Of a stretch of 64,000 bases of DNA, positions 27,259-59,914 are shown in pieces. This DNA comes from Escherichia coli. Lineage in GTDB: Bacteria; Pseudomonadota; Gammaproteobacteria; Enterobacterales; Enterobacteriaceae. How positions within the stretch are numbered: the stretch's first letter is position 1; each line of letters begins with the position of its first letter. The notes below the pieces were generated by a model. The model did not search any database, had not been told where the DNA came from, and was given only the letters and a program-made list of their open reading frames with translations. The stretch lies in assembly GCF_030013205.1 (NCBI RefSeq), contig NZ_CP122648.1; one strand, written 5' to 3'. The position numbers and the translations under genes were made by a program.

Positions 27259-27481
27259 CCTGCACGTTTAAATCAGCAAAAGACTTTGCGCTTCCGGTCA
27301 GAATATCGTGATGCATCAGGCCTGAAACGAGCTGGCTTAATTTCGGGTAATAACCAACCACCGCCAGCCATTCCTGACCGGCGTTTTTACCGCTTTCAGC
27401 TCTCTTTTTCTCGTGGAGAATAAACTGAAAGCTGTCACTGGTAACGACATAACGTTCGCCAATTTCAATACGAATACTCAT
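27206..27481 (-). CDS. phage early protein (P2 orf83 position)
   Basis: 91-aa ORF immediately upstream of A. Confidence 0.45.
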   Translation of the reverse strand: MSIRIEIGERYVVTSDSFQFILHEKKRAESGKNAGQEWLAVVGYYPKLSQLVSGLMHHDILTGSAKSFADLNVQVEQLSKRCSEAFGSHGR

Positions 27482-27702
27482 GCCGTTCTCCGGTAATGTT
27501 TGTTTTTTGCTTCAAAGACTGACTGACAGGAAACACAACGCGTGGCTGACGGGTAAGCCGCACGACGGGCAGCAGGTATTGGCGCGTCACACTCTTCGCA
27601 AACCAGCGCAGAAGCACCGCAATGTTTTACCCTTGCCGCGTTAATCTGGCGCTCCAGTAATTCAGCCTGTTGTTCCTGAATAAAATCTACGTTGTCCGGC
27701 AT
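27478..27702 (-). CDS. DksA/TraR-type C4 zinc-finger protein (P2 orf82 position)
   Basis: CEECDAPIPAARRAAYPSATRCVSCQ four-cysteine motif. Confidence 0.55.
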   Translation of the reverse strand: MPDNVDFIQEQQAELLERQINAARVKHCGASALVCEECDAPIPAARRAAYPSATRCVSCQSVFEAKNKHYRRTA

Positions 27703-28007
27703 TACCAGTTCCTTTTGTCGTTCAGTTTTTTAAATTCATCAGCGCAATAGCTGGCGATTTCTGTCGTTAATTTCGTCAGTTCATCCACGGAGGAAATTTG
27801 CTTGTGAAATACAGCGCGTTTAACAAGTAAATTGACCACATCAGACAGGAGGTTTAATTCACTCTGATAAATCGCGATAACAGATTCAGTTATTTCGCGT
27901 TTTTCTTTATCAAGACCAAGTTGAATAAGAGACAAATCGCCATTTTTCATAACGGCGATTTTTAAGGCATTGTTCAGTAAAACAACTGAACGAGAACAGG
28001 ACATCAA
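27702..28007 (-). CDS. phage early protein (P2 orf81 position)
   Basis: 101-aa ORF, translationally coupled to its neighbours. Confidence 0.4.
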
Positions 28008-28261
28008 AGCACCTCCCCGCGAGACAATCCGATGTTGTGAAATTTTTCCGACTCCTGACTGAGCAGCTCGACTATCTCCACGCGGGATAACTCCGCCTTT
28101 GTGATGTGGCGAATCATGGCGTCAAGATGAGAAGAAAAGCGCGTCGCTGCATCGGCCTGTGCTTCGGTTCTGGCCTGTTGCAGCAGTAATGCGTATTTAC
28201 CGCACTGATTTTCAGAAACTGTATGCATGACTTTCTCCAGGCAAAAAGAAGCCCCGCACAA
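28004..28261 (-). CDS. phage early protein (P2 orf80 position)
   Basis: 85-aa ORF in the early operon. Confidence 0.4.
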
Positions 28262-56782: not shown

Positions 56783-57708
56783 GTATTCGCATAATCCCGC
56801 AAGATGAGCTGGGTTCGAGCGAGAAACGTACGGCGGATATGATTCCGCCGTTATTGTTCCCTCGGCTCAAGAATTTATACAACCGCCGCGCCGAGCGTCT
56901 GCGCGAGCTGGCAGAAAATAATCCGCTGGGTGATTACCTGCGCTTTGCTGCGCTTATCGCCCACGCCCAGGAAGTGGTGCTGTACGACCATCCGCTGGAG
57001 ATGGATCTGACTGCACGCATTAAAGAAGCCAGCGCACAGGGCAAGCCCCCGCTGGATATTCACGTTCTGCCGCGTGATAAGCACTGGCAAAAGCTGCTGA
57101 TGGCGCTAATTGCTGAGCTGAAACCTGAAATGAGCGGCCCGGCGCTGGCAGTGATTGAGAATCTGGAGAAGGCATCGACTCAGGAGCTGGAAGATATGGC
57201 CAGCGCACTGTTTGCCTCTGATTTCTCATCCGTCAGTAGCGATAAAGCGCCGTTTATCTGGGCTGCACTGTCGCTCTACTGGGCGCAGATGGCCAATCTG
57301 ATCCCCGGCAAAGCCCGCGCTGAATACGGCGAACAACGTCAATATTGCCCGGTATGTGGCTCTATGCCTGTTTCCAGCATGGTGCAAATTGGCACCACTC
57401 AGGGTCTGCGTTACCTGCACTGCAACCTGTGTGAAACCGAATGGCACGTAGTGCGCGTAAAATGCAGCAACTGCGAGCAGAGCGGCAAACTGCATTACTG
57501 GTCGCTGGATGACGAACAGGCCGCGATTAAAGCCGAAAGCTGCGATGACTGCGGCACTTACCTGAAGATTCTTTATCAGGAAAAAGAACCGAAAGTTGAA
57601 GCCGTGGCAGATGACCTCGCCTCTCTGGTACTGGACGCGCGAATGGAGCAAGAAGGCTATGCTCGTAGTTCCATCAACCCGTTCCTGTTTCCGGGTGAAG
57701 GGGAGTAA
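56779..57708 (+). CDS. fdhE: formate dehydrogenase accessory protein FdhE
   Basis: 309-aa translation with CxxC pairs ([28 protein letters not shown]). Confidence 0.92.
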
Positions 57709-57889
57709 TCTCTGACGTTTTCCGGGTGGCGCAGGTCGCCCGGATTACAGTTCATAGGGTGTGACGACACCATCTCTCTTATTCCGCGTTACCACCTCAA
57801 GCTATGCTGCCAGTGCCTGTTTTGCCTCAATTTTCACACTGAACAAATCGATAACAATATCGATATCAAATAGCCAAATCTTTTTGCCA

Positions 57890-58108
57890 TTACCATTCCT
57901 CGCGCAGCTTACGCTGGTATTCGACACCATCTTCCTCACTCCCTTGCCAGATGCCAAAAGCACTGGCTCTTGCTGTTTGCGATTGATTTACCAGGTATTG
58001 ATCTACCGCTTCCCGTAATAGCTCCGCACGAGGAAGATTATGCTGCACCTCGAGATCATCAAGTTGCTTAAACAACTCATTCGATAAATTGAGTAAAATT
58101 CTGCCCAT
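57890..58108 (-). CDS. yiiF: ribbon-helix-helix (CopG-like) DNA-binding protein
   Basis: Translation from [39 protein letters not shown]; symbol assigned by adjacency to fdhE. Confidence 0.65.
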
Positions 58109-58225
58109 ATCTATACCTGCCAGAGAGTTCATAAATATCTCGCCCATATCATTTTTGAATCTATGGAGAGAAGAGTACCCTTGTCGAATCTTTAAAGAAA
58201 GCGTATTTACGCATCACTTTTTATT

Positions 58226-58269
58226 TTTGCGAGGCGTTTTCCAGATATGATGTAACAGTTGCAGTTATT
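58226..58269. promoter_or_regulatory. conserved upstream module A (tttgcgaggcgttttccagat ... atgtaacagttgcagttatt, with CAGTT-g-CAGTT direct repeat), putative promoter/operator
   Basis: Recurs at 58666-58709; its first 21 bp recur at 60348-60368. Confidence 0.45.
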
Positions 58270-58350
58270 ATAAGTTCAAGTAAAACAGCCTTGTATTAAT
58301 ACCAGAATAAGGGCATCTGTTTTTTTATATTCAAGAATGAAAAATTTTTG

Positions 58351-58569
58351 TCATTCCTTATGCTCCTTACACTGATCATCAACACCAACTACCTCCCCCT
58401 TTTGCCTGCCTCCCTTTGCTTTACGCACCGGGAATTGCTGACGTTCCAGATATTGCTCTACCGCTTCGCGTAAAATTGCAGATCGTGAAACCTTACGCCA
58501 GCCCCTAAGCTTGTTCAGCCGTTTAATTGCCTCTTCTGATAAATGAAGAAAAACCGTATTCATCGCCAT
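58351..58569 (-). CDS. yiiE: ribbon-helix-helix (CopG-like) DNA-binding protein, paralog of the preceding gene
   Basis: Translation from MAMNTVFLHLSEEAIKRLNKLRGWRKVSRSAILREAVEQYL. Confidence 0.65.
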   Translation of the reverse strand: MAMNTVFLHLSEEAIKRLNKLRGWRKVSRSAILREAVEQYLERQQFPVRKAKGGRQKGEVVGVDDQCKEHKE

Positions 58570-58665
58570 TACCACCACCTTACATATATTACTCATTAAT
58601 GTATGTGCGAAAATTACGCCGAAAAATCATTTAAAAAAAGCGGATTTTTGCATGTCGTTTTGTTT

Positions 58666-58709
58666 TTGCGAGACGGCATCCAAAGATAATGTAACAGTTG
58701 CAGTTATTT
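58666..58709. promoter_or_regulatory. conserved upstream module B (copy of module A)
   Basis: Ungapped alignment with 58226-58269; the 3' 20-mer is identical. Confidence 0.45.
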
Positions 58710-58987
58710 CAATTGTTACTCAAAAATGGTTTAGTAATAACCCAGGATGGTTTATTACTTTTAATTAAGCGGGGACACATCTACAGAAAAGAAACAACAA
58801 ATAATAAGGATGAATTATGGGTGCTATAAATATTTTATATTCAAGAATATTTTTTTGATTGGGTGTTCATTTGCTTCATCAGGATGGTGTACCCGAAAAA
58901 GTCAGCAGCTTTACCGCACCAGGGTTTAAGGTGAAATCTACCATTCATAACTGACCGGTCAGTGCCGCACCAACCGGTCTTTAATTG

Positions 58988-59266
58988 TTAGTAGTAGTAA
59001 ATTTGTGGATAACAGTCCGGGAACCAGACGATTCCTTCTGGATCATCCCCCTGCATTACCCGATGACATTGGCGTCGATCATCTGCGCGACGGCGAAGCG
59101 TAGTATAGAGCCGCTTCCATTCATGATCGCCCGGTGTACTGTAGTTTACCCAACAATCCATTGAAGGGTGACGCCATTTACCTGTAAGTGTTGGGATCCC
59201 TGAATGATTATGTGGCTTCGCTTTACCATTACGATCCCTATCTTTACGCGTATTAAGCGTGGACAT
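58988..59266 (-). CDS. hypothetical 92-aa basic, Cys/His-containing protein
   Basis: Intact ORF; no family recognised. Confidence 0.35.
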   Translation of the reverse strand: MSTLNTRKDRDRNGKAKPHNHSGIPTLTGKWRHPSMDCWVNYSTPGDHEWKRLYTTLRRRADDRRQCHRVMQGDDPEGIVWFPDCYPQIYYY

Positions 59267-59317
59267 TTTTAGTCTCCTGTTAAGAGTTCTAAAAATGTGC
59301 TTCCTTAAAATAGTTCA

Positions 59318-59539
59318 TCATTTTCCCTTAATTCGCATAGCGTGCTTTTGCACGAATTTCCGATACGCGGGGACCATTATGATAGCGTCGATGCCCACAC
59401 ATCCAACAAGAACAAATACAGGGAGTACGAAAGCAAATACCTGATGCTTTTTTGCTTCCATCGCCTGCAGTGCGATAACGGCAGCGGATTTTTTTAATCG
59501 CGCCATATGATGGCGACGTTCAGCACGATTACGGGTCAT
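59318..59539 (-). CDS. hypothetical 73-aa protein, basic N-terminus plus one predicted TM helix
   Basis: Hydrophobic segment FAFVLPVFVLVGCVGIDAIIMV; ATG immediately downstream of the 59545-59585 hairpin. Confidence 0.35.
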   Translation of the reverse strand: MTRNRAERRHHMARLKKSAAVIALQAMEAKKHQVFAFVLPVFVLVGCVGIDAIIMVPAYRKFVQKHAMRIKGK

Positions 59540-59544
59540 AGTAA

Positions 59545-59650
59545 AACTCCTGAGCAGGCGGCACTATGCCGCTTTCATAGGAGTTCTGAATGCTGGTGCT
59601 TTCTGTATGGCATAACCATGCCTCTAACGGTTAAGTGCCTGCAGCACATG
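59545..59650. repeat. ~100-bp repeat, copy 1 (imperfect hairpin plus conserved tail); overlaps the 3' end of the antitoxin gene
   Basis: About 85% identical to 61362-61464. Confidence 0.55.
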
Positions 59651-59914
59651 TTGCGGATCATTGGCAATCGCTCGCAGCAAAGCCTTTGCAGGCCCAGTCG
59701 GTGAACGTCGCCCCTGCTCCCAGTTACGCAACGTGTCTACGCTTACGGAAATAAGTTCGGCAAATTTAGATTGTGACAACCCTGAAGCGCGGCGTATTTC
59801 TTTGATTTTCATAGCATCAACTTCAAAAGTCCGTGAAGGGTGTCGCGTTCCTTCAATAATTTCATTCATCTGGGCCATGCTGTGAGTCAACCGCTCAAAA
59901 AGTGCCTTATCCAT
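59624..59914 (-). CDS. HigA-like HTH (XRE-family) antitoxin
   Basis: 96-aa translation with HTH (SQSKFAELISVSVDTLRNWEQGRRSP); directly follows the toxin gene. Confidence 0.75.
   Translation of the reverse strand: MDKALFERLTHSMAQMNEIIEGTRHPSRTFEVDAMKIKEIRRASGLSQSKFAELISVSVDTLRNWEQGRRSPTGPAKALLRAIANDPQHVLQALNR

What the first reader, a model, noticed from the sequence alone, without database searches (positions are those of the whole stretch)
58988..59539. Two small uncharacterised ORFs downstream of the toxin-antitoxin pair
The 73-aa ORF has a strongly basic N-terminus followed by one hydrophobic helix, a layout seen in small membrane-active toxins and regulatory peptides. The 92-aa ORF is basic and Cys/His-containing. 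Both are co-oriented with the toxin-antitoxin operon and separated from it only by the hairpin element. They could be an additional toxin/immunity pair or cargo of the same islet. Coding status is uncertain.
Basis: inference. Interest (0 to 1): 0.35.

Follow-up and report, generated by a model that had tools for sequence, protein, structure and literature searches.

The report
Frameshifted small gene plus conserved partner

Summary
Both ORFs are at the stated coordinates in an E. coli chromosome. They lie downstream of a RelE-like/NadS toxin-antitoxin pair, in a segment that K-12 lacks.

The 92-aa ORF ("gene B") is intact and evolves as a protein (dN/dS 0.12-0.24). It belongs to a broad family that no library catalogues, with a C-terminal WW..TRPRRA..G.DPDG..W..KP..YYW domain.

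The 73-aa ORF is a frameshift allele of a conserved 70-aa gene ("gene A"):
- An A8 tract is A7 in this window, so only codons 1-17 are in the conserved frame.
- The hydrophobic "helix" is the out-of-frame reading of a CSCWMCGH motif.
- Intact gene A has dN/dS 0.11-0.19 and matches phrog_4499 (phage T5 gene T5.055, function unknown).
- About 88% of the complete E. coli genomes that carry the locus have the in-frame A8 tract.

A and B are adjacent in Escherichia, Klebsiella, Salmonella plasmids, Edwardsiella and others, but each also occurs alone. Gene B's start codon is also buried in a conserved hairpin.

Function is unknown. My best guess is a pair of small basic nucleic-acid-binding proteins under tight translational control. 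The membrane-toxin reading is not supported.

The parts
58988..59266 (-). Gene B: intact 92-aa basic protein (stop codon included). Member of an uncatalogued family with a C-terminal WW..TRPRRA..G.DPDG..W..KP..YYW domain.
   Evidence: ORF. Homologues: Salmonella IncFIB plasmids at 44% identity, Edwardsiella, and 62 cluster representatives at E<=1e-3. HMM score 100 bits. dN/dS 0.12-0.24, against more than 1 in shifted frames.
59318..59539 (-). The 73-aa ORF as annotated: a frameshift allele of gene A. Only codons 1-17 (59489..59539) are in the conserved frame.
   Evidence: Family HMM scores only 31.5 bits on this frame. No PHROG or Pfam hit.
59328..59488 (-). Conserved-frame remainder of gene A: ...IRCRYRTAGDGSKKASGICFRTPCICSCWMCGHRRYHNGPRVSEIRAKARYAN, stop TAA at 59328-59330. 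It is cut off from the start codon by the 1-nt deletion.
   Evidence: Six-frame scan. HMM score 86.4 bits on this frame, against 116 bits for the single intact ORF in UTI89. Identical to UTI89 residues 18-70.
59489..59495 (-). Homopolymer tract: A7 on the coding strand (T7 on the + strand). It is A8 in the intact allele and is the site of the frameshift.
   Evidence: Alignment of window against UTI89; sequences. Allele counts.
59545..59585 (-). Gene A leader hairpin. The outer stem pairs AACUCCU with the Shine-Dalgarno sequence AGGAGUU (SD at 59547-59551). The inner stem is GCGGCA/UGCCGC.
   Evidence: (P(SD paired) 0.99; z = -4.2), 84-86, 103.
59253..59308 (-). Gene B initiation hairpin. The SD lies in the loop and the AUG in the 3' arm (arms 59289-59308 and 59253-59272).
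   Evidence: Inverted repeat I4. Conserved, with compensatory changes, in L005, L009, L012, L017, L018, L030 and L033.
58905..58980 (-). Candidate 3' end of the unit: palindrome GACCGGT..ACCGGTC just after the gene B stop, plus a terminator-like hairpin at 58917-58905.
   Evidence: Sequence; terminator scan. Consensus matches only, not tested.
59624..60226 (-). Upstream neighbours: RelE-like toxin (59915..60226) and NadS-family HTH antitoxin (59624..59914), with a promoter-like site at 60255-60228.
61362..61459 (.). Second copy (88% identical) of the 98-nt element that contains the hairpin. No gene A follows it.
   Evidence: Direct repeat D1. Covariance-model hit at 61359-61409, 52 bits. Alignment.

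Best explanation
SHOWN. The region holds a conserved two-gene cassette, A then B. In Escherichia, Klebsiella spallanzanii and Pseudocitrobacter it sits immediately 3' of the same RelE-like/NadS toxin-antitoxin pair, between fabY and the yiiE/yiiF-fdhE side. Pseudocitrobacter has gene A only.

Gene B (92 aa) is intact and under purifying selection.

Gene A is normally a 70-aa, very basic, hydrophilic protein. It has an arginine-rich N-terminal helix (M.R.RAERRHH..R.K..R) and an invariant CSCWMCGH.R motif. It is a member of phage family phrog_4499, whose T5 member is T5.055.

In this window a 1-nt deletion in an A8 tract after codon 17 throws the rest of gene A out of frame. The annotated 73-aa ORF is therefore a chimera, and its hydrophobic segment is not a conserved feature.

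A stable hairpin that pairs the Shine-Dalgarno sequence lies 5-8 nt upstream of gene A in almost every genomic context. Gene B's AUG lies inside a second conserved hairpin.

INFERRED, about 25-30% confidence. A is a zinc-binding, arginine-rich nucleic-acid (probably RNA) binding protein, and B is a small basic Trp/Tyr-rich partner. Synthesis of both is kept low by structured initiation regions that must be opened by processing, a trans factor or upstream translation. The cassette acts as a regulatory or host/phage-interference module rather than as a membrane toxin.

In this strain's lineage gene A is a pseudogene. At most it is leaky, because the zero-frame sequence A_AAA_AAA is a classical -1 slippery heptamer and a -1 slip would restore the conserved frame. 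Gene B is retained.
For: Frameshift:
- UTI89 carries a 70-aa ORF that is 52% identical over 66 aa to the ORF upstream of the B homologue on a Salmonella plasmid, E=9e-22. The window's 73-aa ORF matches that ORF only at its N-terminus.
- The tract is T7 in the window and T8 in UTI89.
- The family HMM splits over two frames in the window: 31.5 + 86.4 bits, against 116 bits in one ORF in UTI89.

Family:
- 15-34 homologues with invariant R9, R14, R19, G34, C43, C45, C48, H50, R52, G56 and E61.
- 31 species in the GTDB scan, 109 viral contigs, and 442 phage records, mostly T5-like.
- The T5 homologue is T5.055. The phrog_4499 match has E=1.4e-13.

Selection: dN/dS is 0.11-0.19 for A and 0.12-0.24 for B, against about 0.8-2.3 in shifted frames.

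Gene B family.

Linkage: A then B in E. coli, a Salmonella plasmid, Edwardsiella, K. spallanzanii, Escherichia sp., Kosakonia, K. oxytoca, Huaxiibacter and Dryocola. B then A in a metagenomic lineage.

Population: 974 genomes match the UTI89 haplotype with A8 exactly, and 2 have A7 on that haplotype. On the window haplotype 146 are A7 and about 146 differ from the A7 query.

Hairpins:
- Folds.
- Leader z-score median -4.04, against -0.19 for 49 control leaders; Mann-Whitney p=2e-11.
- G-U pairs favour the sense strand in the Pantoea group: -39.7 against -28.3 kcal/mol.
- Gene B hairpin with compensatory changes.

Hydropathy.
Against: - No experimental data on expression or function.
- No hit to any characterised family in Pfam, NCBIfam, PADLOC or PDB by sequence, and none by Foldseek against PDB.
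- AlphaFold models are weak: mean pLDDT 59.8 for A and 67.4 for B. Zinc binding and RNA binding are inferred from motifs only.
- A lies next to B in only 8 of 31 species-representative loci, and B occurs alone next to an IS3 element, so they need not act together.
- RNAalifold on a plain MAFFT alignment of all leaders found no consensus structure. A covariance model built on the E. coli-type group did not recover the other groups. The hairpin conservation therefore rests on per-sequence folds of related sequences.
- The inner-stem core is conserved in sequence, so it gives little covariation.
- In E. coli the palindrome could simply be the 3' hairpin of the toxin-antitoxin operon.
- dS values are saturated (above 1), so the dN/dS figures are approximate.
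Confidence: 0.7

Rival explanations
1. One reading: the 73-aa ORF is a small membrane-active toxin or regulatory peptide with one TM helix, and the 92-aa ORF is its immunity or partner protein.
For: The ORF as it stands has a basic N-terminus and a TM-like segment, Kyte-Doolittle 2.60. It lies beside a toxin-antitoxin pair. Its SD-sequestering leader resembles the tight translational control of type I toxin mRNAs.
Against: The hydrophobic segment arises only from the A7 frameshift. That allele matches exactly in 146 of about 1268 complete genomes with the locus, and in 2 of about 976 on the UTI89 haplotype. Outgroups and phages conserve the other, hydrophilic frame. Shifted frames evolve at dN/dS of about 1. 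There is no family hit for the 73-aa product.
Confidence: 0.04
2. A and B form a new toxin-antitoxin-like (addiction or abortive-infection) pair. One small basic protein would be toxic and the other, or the leader structure, would restrain it.
For: The two genes are small, adjacent and sometimes overlapping: 32-nt overlap on the Salmonella plasmid. They occur on plasmids, next to integrases, restriction-modification genes, toxin-antitoxin genes and IS elements. Both initiation regions are occluded. In this lineage gene A is knocked out while B stays intact, as expected if A were the toxic partner.
Against: A occurs without B in 23 of 31 species loci, and in lytic T5-like phages. B occurs without A. 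Neither matches any toxin-antitoxin or defence model. In some Chromatiales-type genomes gene A sits between gyrA and serC like a stable chromosomal gene.
Confidence: 0.15
3. The ORFs are chance open frames in decaying intergenic DNA and are not genes.
For: Many E. coli variants carry frameshifts. About 1575 genomes carry a roughly 390-bp deletion of most of A and B. K-12 lacks the whole segment. PGAP usually leaves the 70-aa frame unannotated.
Against: Full-length homologues at 40-57% identity exist in other genera, plasmids and phages. dN/dS is 0.11-0.24 in the proposed frames and about 1 or more in the others. 974 genomes keep the A8 allele on one haplotype, against 2 with A7.
Confidence: 0.02
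4. The A7/A8 tract is a phase-variation switch (contingency locus) that turns gene A on and off.
For: There is an 8-nt homopolymer early in the gene. Both lengths occur in E. coli, and further frame variants exist at a second A6 tract.
Against: On the UTI89 haplotype the ratio is 974 A8 to 2 A7. A7 is concentrated on the window's haplotype, which looks like one inherited mutation. Outgroups interrupt the tract.
Confidence: 0.03
5. The hairpin is only the transcription terminator or 3' stabiliser of the toxin-antitoxin operon (or a local repeat), and A/B are read-through passengers.
For: It follows nadS by about 40 nt and is followed by UUUU. A second copy follows the hydrolase gene with no gene A after it.
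Against: Equivalent SD-pairing hairpins with different sequences sit 5-8 nt before gene A in the Salmonella plasmid, Edwardsiella, Pantoea, Massilia, Chromatiaceae and plasmid loci, none of which has this toxin-antitoxin pair. Most lack a U-run. The simple terminator scan does not call it.
Confidence: 0.1

Closest known systems
PHROG family phrog_4499; bacteriophage T5 gene T5.055 (YP_006883.1), 'hypothetical protein'
   Same: The intact gene A (70 aa) matches the family HMM at E=1.4e-13. It shares the N-terminal RA.RRHH..R.K..R.Y motif and the CSCWMCG core with T5.055. 442 phage records carry a homologue.
   Different: The chromosomal proteins end about 20 residues after the Cys motif, whereas T5.055 has an extra acidic C-terminal tail (phrog_6828). 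They have H where T5 has N after CSCWMCG. The strong GC-rich leader hairpin is not evident upstream of T5.055. The family has no known function. The window's own copy is frameshifted.
Type I toxin mRNAs (hok/mok, tisB, ldr, zor) and other genes with SD-sequestering 5' structures
   Same: Small genes whose ribosome-binding site is buried in a stable, conserved stem, located in accessory DNA.
   Different: The conserved products are hydrophilic and basic, not TM peptides. No antisense RNA was sought or seen. There is no homology to these toxins. The resemblance is functional analogy only (my knowledge of these systems, not tested).
Small RNA-hairpin-binding regulators: arginine-rich-motif proteins (lambda/P22 N) and the zinc-finger translational activator Com of phage Mu
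   Same: Gene A combines an arginine-rich N-terminal helix with a Cys3-His cluster and is preceded by a conserved hairpin. Com opens a translation-inhibiting structure. These are resemblances recalled from established literature.
   Different: No sequence or structural similarity was detected. RNA binding, zinc binding and autoregulation are untested. The hairpin loops are not conserved between lineages.
Type II toxin-antitoxin pairs such as the adjacent RelE-like/NadS pair
   Same: Two small co-oriented genes in the same islet, also found on plasmids.
   Different: No match to any toxin or antitoxin family. The genes are frequently uncoupled.

Membership tests
phrog_4499 (T5.055-like small proteins) | Significant match of the protein to the family HMM | tested here: met
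   The intact E. coli allele (UTI89, 70 aa) scores E=1.4e-13, relatives 4e-12 to 3e-17, and T5.055 6e-40. The window's annotated 73-aa product gives no significant PHROG hit. Membership therefore holds for the locus, not for the ORF as it stands.
phrog_4499 (T5.055-like small proteins) | Invariant CSCWMCG(H/N).R motif in frame with the start codon | tested here: not met
   In the window the motif is encoded (59328..59488, other frame) but is out of frame with the ATG because of the A7 tract. It is in frame in UTI89 and in all outgroups.
phrog_4499 (T5.055-like small proteins) | Arginine-rich N-terminal motif RA.RRHH..R.K | tested here: met
   MTRNRAERRHHMARLKK is present and in frame. R5, A6, R8, R9, H10, R14 and K16 are invariant or nearly invariant.
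Gene B family (uncatalogued; C-terminal WW..TRPRRA..G.DPDG..W..KP..YYW domain) | Full-length match to the profile, with the nearly invariant residues present | tested here: met
   The window's 92-aa protein has W50, R60, G73, D75, P87 and a C-terminal YYY. There are 62 representatives at E<=1e-3. No Pfam or PHROG model covers any of the 37 members tested.
Small membrane toxins (type I toxin-like) | Conserved hydrophobic transmembrane helix | tested here: not met
   The hydrophobic segment exists only in the frameshift frame. The conserved frame has a maximum 19-residue Kyte-Doolittle score of 0.77.
Small membrane toxins (type I toxin-like) | Cis- or trans-encoded antisense RNA antitoxin | not tested
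   No transcript data. Rfam gives nothing in 57700-61700.
Type II toxin-antitoxin pair | Homology of either product to a known toxin or antitoxin fold or family | tested here: not met
   No hits in Pfam, NCBIfam, PADLOC, PDB by sequence, or Foldseek against PDB.
Type II toxin-antitoxin pair | Obligate co-occurrence of the two genes | tested here: not met
   B follows A in 8 of 31 species loci. A is alone in the rest and in T5-like phages. B is alone in L014/L015.
Type II toxin-antitoxin pair | Growth arrest by one product, neutralised by the other | not testable with these tools
   Needs expression experiments.
Phase-variable contingency locus | Frequent reversible tract-length change within lineages | tested here: not met
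   974 A8 against 2 A7 on the UTI89 haplotype. A7 is concentrated on one haplotype.
Known cis-regulatory RNA families (Rfam 15) | Covariance-model match of the hairpin region | tested here: not met
   No Rfam hit covers 59537-59642 at E<=1.
Intrinsic terminator | GC-rich stem followed by a U-run | tested here: inconclusive
   E. coli has UUUU after the stem, but the scan does not call it. Equivalents in other lineages lack U-runs.

The most novel reading that the evidence does not exclude
The A-B cassette is a previously unrecognised small-protein system shared by enterobacterial chromosomes and plasmids, with gene A also in T5-like phages. Gene A would be a Cys3-His/arginine-rich RNA-binding protein. 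Its own mRNA carries a new class of SD-sequestering leader that it, or a processing event, opens. Gene B would be the effector or partner. The system would act in phage-host conflict or in post-transcriptional control.
Probability: 0.25. Interest if true: 0.65.

Novelty: new member of a known kind. Interest (0 to 1): 0.42.

Why it matters
1. It corrects an annotation that has spread widely. The 73-aa product is seen on more than 1000 contigs and is often named "cobalt ABC transporter ATP-binding protein", yet it is a frameshift chimera. The intact 70-aa gene, present in UTI89, ST131 and Nissle-type strains, is usually not annotated at all.

2. It defines two conserved small-protein families with no curated model. 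One of them links E. coli chromosomes to an uncharacterised early-region gene of phage T5.

3. It identifies candidate cis-regulatory hairpins that occlude the ribosome-binding site of A and the start codon of B. These give concrete, cheap experiments.

If the cassette acts in phage-host conflict or RNA control, it would add a new small-protein module. If not, it remains a tidy example of how a frameshift can mimic a membrane peptide.

Tried and rejected
Searches that gave nothing useful:
- Pfam, NCBIfam, PHROG and PADLOC scans of the ORFs as annotated.
- Pfam and PHROG scans of 37 gene B relatives.
- PADLOC and NCBIfam scans of corrected gene A, T5.055 and recurrent neighbours: none or only marginal hits.
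- PDB sequence search with both profiles: only chance hits at E 0.4-0.6.
- Foldseek against PDB: nothing below E=6. AlphaFold2 confidence for A is too low to search with, mean pLDDT 59.8; B is 67.4. The afdb50 library was not available.
- Rfam: no family for either hairpin.
- Literature searches for yiiE/yiiF, T5.055 and the motif strings: nothing relevant.
- Genomic contexts of distant gene B relatives: contigs under 1 kb, uninformative.

Structure tests that fell short:
- RNAalifold on a MAFFT alignment of 23 leaders gave no consensus structure, because stem lengths differ.
- Inner-stem pair counts show a mostly invariant GCGG/CCGC core with modest covariation.
- A covariance model built from the E. 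coli-type leaders recovered only that group plus Klebsiella indica and the second window copy.

Ideas considered and rejected:
- A and B as paralogues: hhalign probability 0.8%.
- Phase variation.
- Sequencing error at the homopolymer: the allele is shared by 146 complete genomes, and its product is on more than 1000 contigs from several sources.
Full report
**Observation.** The ORF listing finds both ORFs at the reported coordinates on the minus strand: 92 aa at 58988..59266 and 73 aa at 59318..59539.
- The 73-aa product has a very basic N-terminus and a TM-like segment. Its pI is 11.4 and its best 19-residue hydropathy is 2.60, starting at residue 38.
- The 92-aa product is basic (pI 9.3), with 3 Cys and 5 His.
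- The window is E. coli. It is 100% identical over 58900-59620 to ETEC1748 and nine other complete genomes, where PGAP calls both ORFs "hypothetical protein".

**Context.** The gene order in the window is fdoH-fdoI-fdhE, yiiF, yiiE, the 92-aa ORF, the 73-aa ORF, nadS-type antitoxin (59624..59914), RelE-like toxin (59915..60226), a divergent alpha/beta hydrolase, a 617-aa ORF, then fabY.
- K-12 lacks window 59023..63282.
- Of 5426 complete E. coli genomes, 2844 have at least the part next to the toxin-antitoxin pair.
- 1269 have the whole two-ORF region.
- The others, such as O26:H11, carry a deletion of about 390 bp. It joins the first 17 codons of the 73-aa ORF to a diverged remnant of the 3' end of the 92-aa ORF.

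**The 73-aa ORF is a frameshift allele.** The "homologues" of the 73-aa ORF in a 5.8-billion-protein collection are nearly all E. coli proteins that share residues 1-17 and then switch between three reading frames.

A tblastn search of the 92-aa ORF against plasmids found a 96-aa homologue (44% identity) on Salmonella IncFIB plasmids. Just upstream of it lies an unannotated ORF: MARTRAERRHHAARLKRKRATYNNRGAGTPAHIGMVYRTPCCCSCHMCGHPRR.... Its N-terminus matches the 73-aa ORF. Its Cys-rich part matches the alternative frame of the E. coli DNA.

UTI89 carries that frame intact as a 70-aa ORF: MTRNRAERRHHMVRLKKIRCRYRTAGDGSKKASGICFRTPCICSCWMCGHRRYHNGPRVSEIRAKARYAN. It is 52% identical to the Salmonella ORF over 66 residues, E=9e-22. 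The window's 73-aa product matches only at its N-terminus.

The difference is one base: T7 at 59489-59495 in the window against T8 in UTI89. In the window the rest of the conserved frame is still open and identical to UTI89 (59328..59488). A family HMM scores 31.5 bits on the 73-aa frame plus 86.4 bits on the other frame, against 116 bits on the single UTI89 ORF.

The "hydrophobic helix" VFAFVLPVFVLVGCVGIDAIIMVPAY is therefore the out-of-frame reading of GICFRTPCICSCWMCGHRRYHNGPRV. In the conserved frame the maximum hydropathy is 0.77.

**Gene A family.** A profile search found full-length relatives at 40-57% identity in Salmonella, Edwardsiella and metagenomes.
- A scan of one genome per species found it in 31 species. 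These include Klebsiella, Pseudocitrobacter, Pantoea, Erwinia, Mixta, Rouxiella, Kosakonia, Serratia, Edwardsiella, Chromatiales, Massilia and Endozoicomonas.
- It is in 109 IMG/VR viral contigs.
- It is in 442 GenBank phage records, overwhelmingly T5-like phages.
- In T5 itself the homologue is T5.055, a 103-aa hypothetical protein carrying CSCWMCGNPRK.
- The intact 70-aa protein matches phrog_4499 ("unknown function") at E=1.4e-13. The 73-aa product had matched nothing.
- Invariant residues in 34 sequences are R9, R14, R19, G34, C43, C45, C48, H50, R52, G56 and E61.

**Gene B family.** An exhaustive HMMER search with the E. coli + Salmonella profile found 62 cluster representatives at E<=1e-3. 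They are 70-117-aa basic proteins that share a C-terminal domain, NP.WW.....TRPRRA..R........G.DPDG..W....KP..YYW, which the window's protein has. None of 37 members matches a Pfam or PHROG model. A and B are not homologous to each other.

**Linkage.**
- A is immediately followed by B in E. coli, Escherichia sp., K. spallanzanii, the Salmonella plasmid (32-nt overlap), Huaxiibacter, Edwardsiella tarda and E. ictaluri, Kosakonia, K. oxytoca and Dryocola.
- The order is B then A in one metagenomic lineage.
- Both lie within 2 kb on a Rep3 plasmid contig.
- Only 8 of the 31 species-representative loci have B within 3 kb of A. B occurs alone beside an IS3 element.
- The block hydrolase, toxin, NadS, A (plus B), RHH+PIN pair, fdhE is syntenic in K. 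spallanzanii and Pseudocitrobacter (A only), and a neighbouring fdhE also recurs at the Escherichia sp. locus. In this family the segment therefore looks old and repeatedly lost, rather than a recent insertion.

**Selection.** Nei-Gojobori estimates between E. coli, Escherichia sp., K. spallanzanii and Pseudocitrobacter give the following.

| Gene | dN/dS, proposed frame | dN/dS, the two shifted frames |
|---|---|---|
| A | 0.11-0.19 | 0.8-2.3 |
| B | 0.12-0.24 | 0.9-2.0 |

dS is saturated, so the values are approximate. The contrast between frames is clear. Both are real protein-coding genes, and the frame of the 73-aa tail is not selected.

**E. coli population.** Short exact-match queries across the tract give these counts.
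- 974 genomes have the UTI89 haplotype with A8, and only 2 have that haplotype with A7.
- On the window's haplotype 146 are A7, and about 146 differ from the A7 query. Rows suggest these are mostly A8.

So about 88% of carriers keep the frame at this tract. A7 looks like a lineage mutation, not phase variation. It is not an assembly artefact: the exact 73-aa product is on more than 1000 contigs from several sources, often mislabelled "cobalt ABC transporter ATP-binding protein". PGAP tends to annotate the frameshifted ORF and to leave the intact 70-aa gene unannotated.

The zero-frame sequence uuA-AAA-AAA-ucc is a classical -1 slippery heptamer, and a -1 slip would restore the conserved frame. 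Some full-length A might therefore still be made. This is an inference from established knowledge of dnaX and IS frameshifting and was not tested.

**The hairpins.**
- It is almost invariant between E. coli, Escherichia sp., K. spallanzanii and Pseudocitrobacter, although synonymous sites around it are saturated.
- Hairpins of the same design but different sequence lie 5-8 nt upstream of gene A in loci that lack this toxin-antitoxin pair. The design is an outer stem of anti-SD paired with SD, an internal loop, and a GC-rich inner stem. The loci are the Salmonella plasmid, Edwardsiella, the Pantoea group, Massilia, Chromatiaceae, Endozoicomonas and a Rep3 plasmid.
- The probability that the SD is paired is 0.6-1.0, and z-scores are -2 to -6.
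- The median z is -4.04 for 24 leaders, against -0.19 for 49 control leaders from the same loci (Mann-Whitney p=2e-11). The leaders are related sequences, so this overstates independence.
- In the Pantoea group G-U pairs make the sense strand about 11 kcal/mol more stable than the antisense strand.
- The hairpin is absent where gene A lies directly after gyrA, and it is not evident upstream of T5.055.
- No Rfam family matches.
- A covariance model of the E. coli-type leader finds just two copies in the 64-kb window: the one before gene A and a second at 61359-61409 with no gene after it.

Gene B's start codon lies in the 3' arm of another hairpin (59253-59308), with the SD in the loop. This is conserved, with compensatory changes, in several lineages.

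Formal covariation support is limited. RNAalifold on a MAFFT alignment failed, and the inner-stem core is mostly invariant.

**Mechanism.**
- Shown: the gene content, the frameshift, purifying selection, the distribution and the occluded initiation regions.
- Inferred: gene A, with an arginine-rich helix plus a Cys3-His cluster, is a zinc- and nucleic-acid-binding protein. Gene B is a basic Trp/Tyr-rich partner. Both are kept at low translation by their leaders. I put this at roughly 25-30%.

AlphaFold models are weak: mean pLDDT 59.8 for A and 67.4 for B, with two confident C-terminal helices in B. Nothing similar was found in the PDB. A toxin-antitoxin-like role cannot be excluded (about 15%). 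The membrane-toxin reading is essentially refuted.

**Comparison and novelty.** By sequence, gene A is a member of phrog_4499 (T5.055-like). Gene B's family, the A-B cassette and the leader hairpins are in none of the libraries I could search. The products are already in databases as hypothetical proteins, so I rate this "new member of a known kind". The more novel reading gets a probability of 0.25.

**Limits.** There are no expression data. I did not count frame integrity across all 1269 genomes. The evidence for the hairpins rests on per-sequence folding.

Noticed in passing
window 59545-59642 and 61362-61459: A 98-nt direct repeat (88% identical) brackets the toxin-antitoxin pair plus the hydrolase gene. 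Copy 2 contains a perfect 19-bp version of the hairpin with no gene A after it. It occurs only in genomes that also carry the extra 617-aa ORF segment; UTI89 has one copy.
   Followed up: partly
window 57890-58147 (yiiF) and 58351-58596 (yiiE); L012 3490-4106; L019 3397-4049: yiiE and yiiF are ribbon-helix-helix proteins. In K. spallanzanii-like and Pseudocitrobacter genomes the equivalent position holds an RHH gene followed by a PIN-domain gene. The E. coli genes therefore look like orphan VapB-type antitoxins whose VapC partner was lost.
   Followed up: partly
window 58191-58269, 58630-58708 and 60342-60368: A repeated upstream segment (79 nt, 81% identical) precedes both yiiF and yiiE. Its 27-nt core, TTTA..TTTGCGAGGCG.TTTCCAGAT, recurs in the divergent toxin/hydrolase intergenic region. 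It may be a shared operator or promoter.
   Followed up: no
window 61532-63385 (-): A 617-aa ORF with low G+C (35-43%) and no Pfam, NCBIfam or PADLOC match. In the otherwise identical ETEC1748 record the same stretch is annotated as a 'transposase' plus a partial pseudogene. It is absent from UTI89 and K-12.
   Followed up: no
databases; window 59318-59539: The exact 73-aa frameshift product is on more than 1000 contigs and is named 'cobalt ABC transporter ATP-binding protein' in many NCBI and UniRef records. This is a propagated misannotation. The intact 70-aa gene is mostly unannotated in RefSeq complete genomes.
   Followed up: yes
L002 3959-4051 (O26:H11) and about 1575 other E. coli genomes: A deletion of about 390 bp removes most of A and B and leaves a 30-aa ORF, MTRNRAERRHPMMRLKKLIVALMIDVNAIG, behind the retained hairpin.
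   Followed up: partly
L038, L040, L045, L046: In Chromatiales and other gammaproteobacterial MAGs, gene A sits directly after gyrA (and before serC in three of the four). It has no strong leader hairpin, as if it were a stable chromosomal gene there.
   Followed up: no
L007 3245-3880; also L016, L027, L029, L044: An unknown protein of about 211 aa (no Pfam, NCBIfam or PADLOC hit) recurs next to gene A in Edwardsiella, Kosakonia, K. oxytoca and a Rep3 plasmid contig. In most of these it is immediately upstream. It may be a third component of the cassette in that lineage.
   Followed up: partly
L128 (phage T5, record positions 27263-28024): The T5 homologue T5.055 lies next to T5.056, a glycyl-radical (GrcA/YfiD-like) protein, in the early tRNA-rich region. 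One T5-like record annotates the gene A homologue itself as 'pyruvate formate-lyase', probably an error.
   Followed up: no
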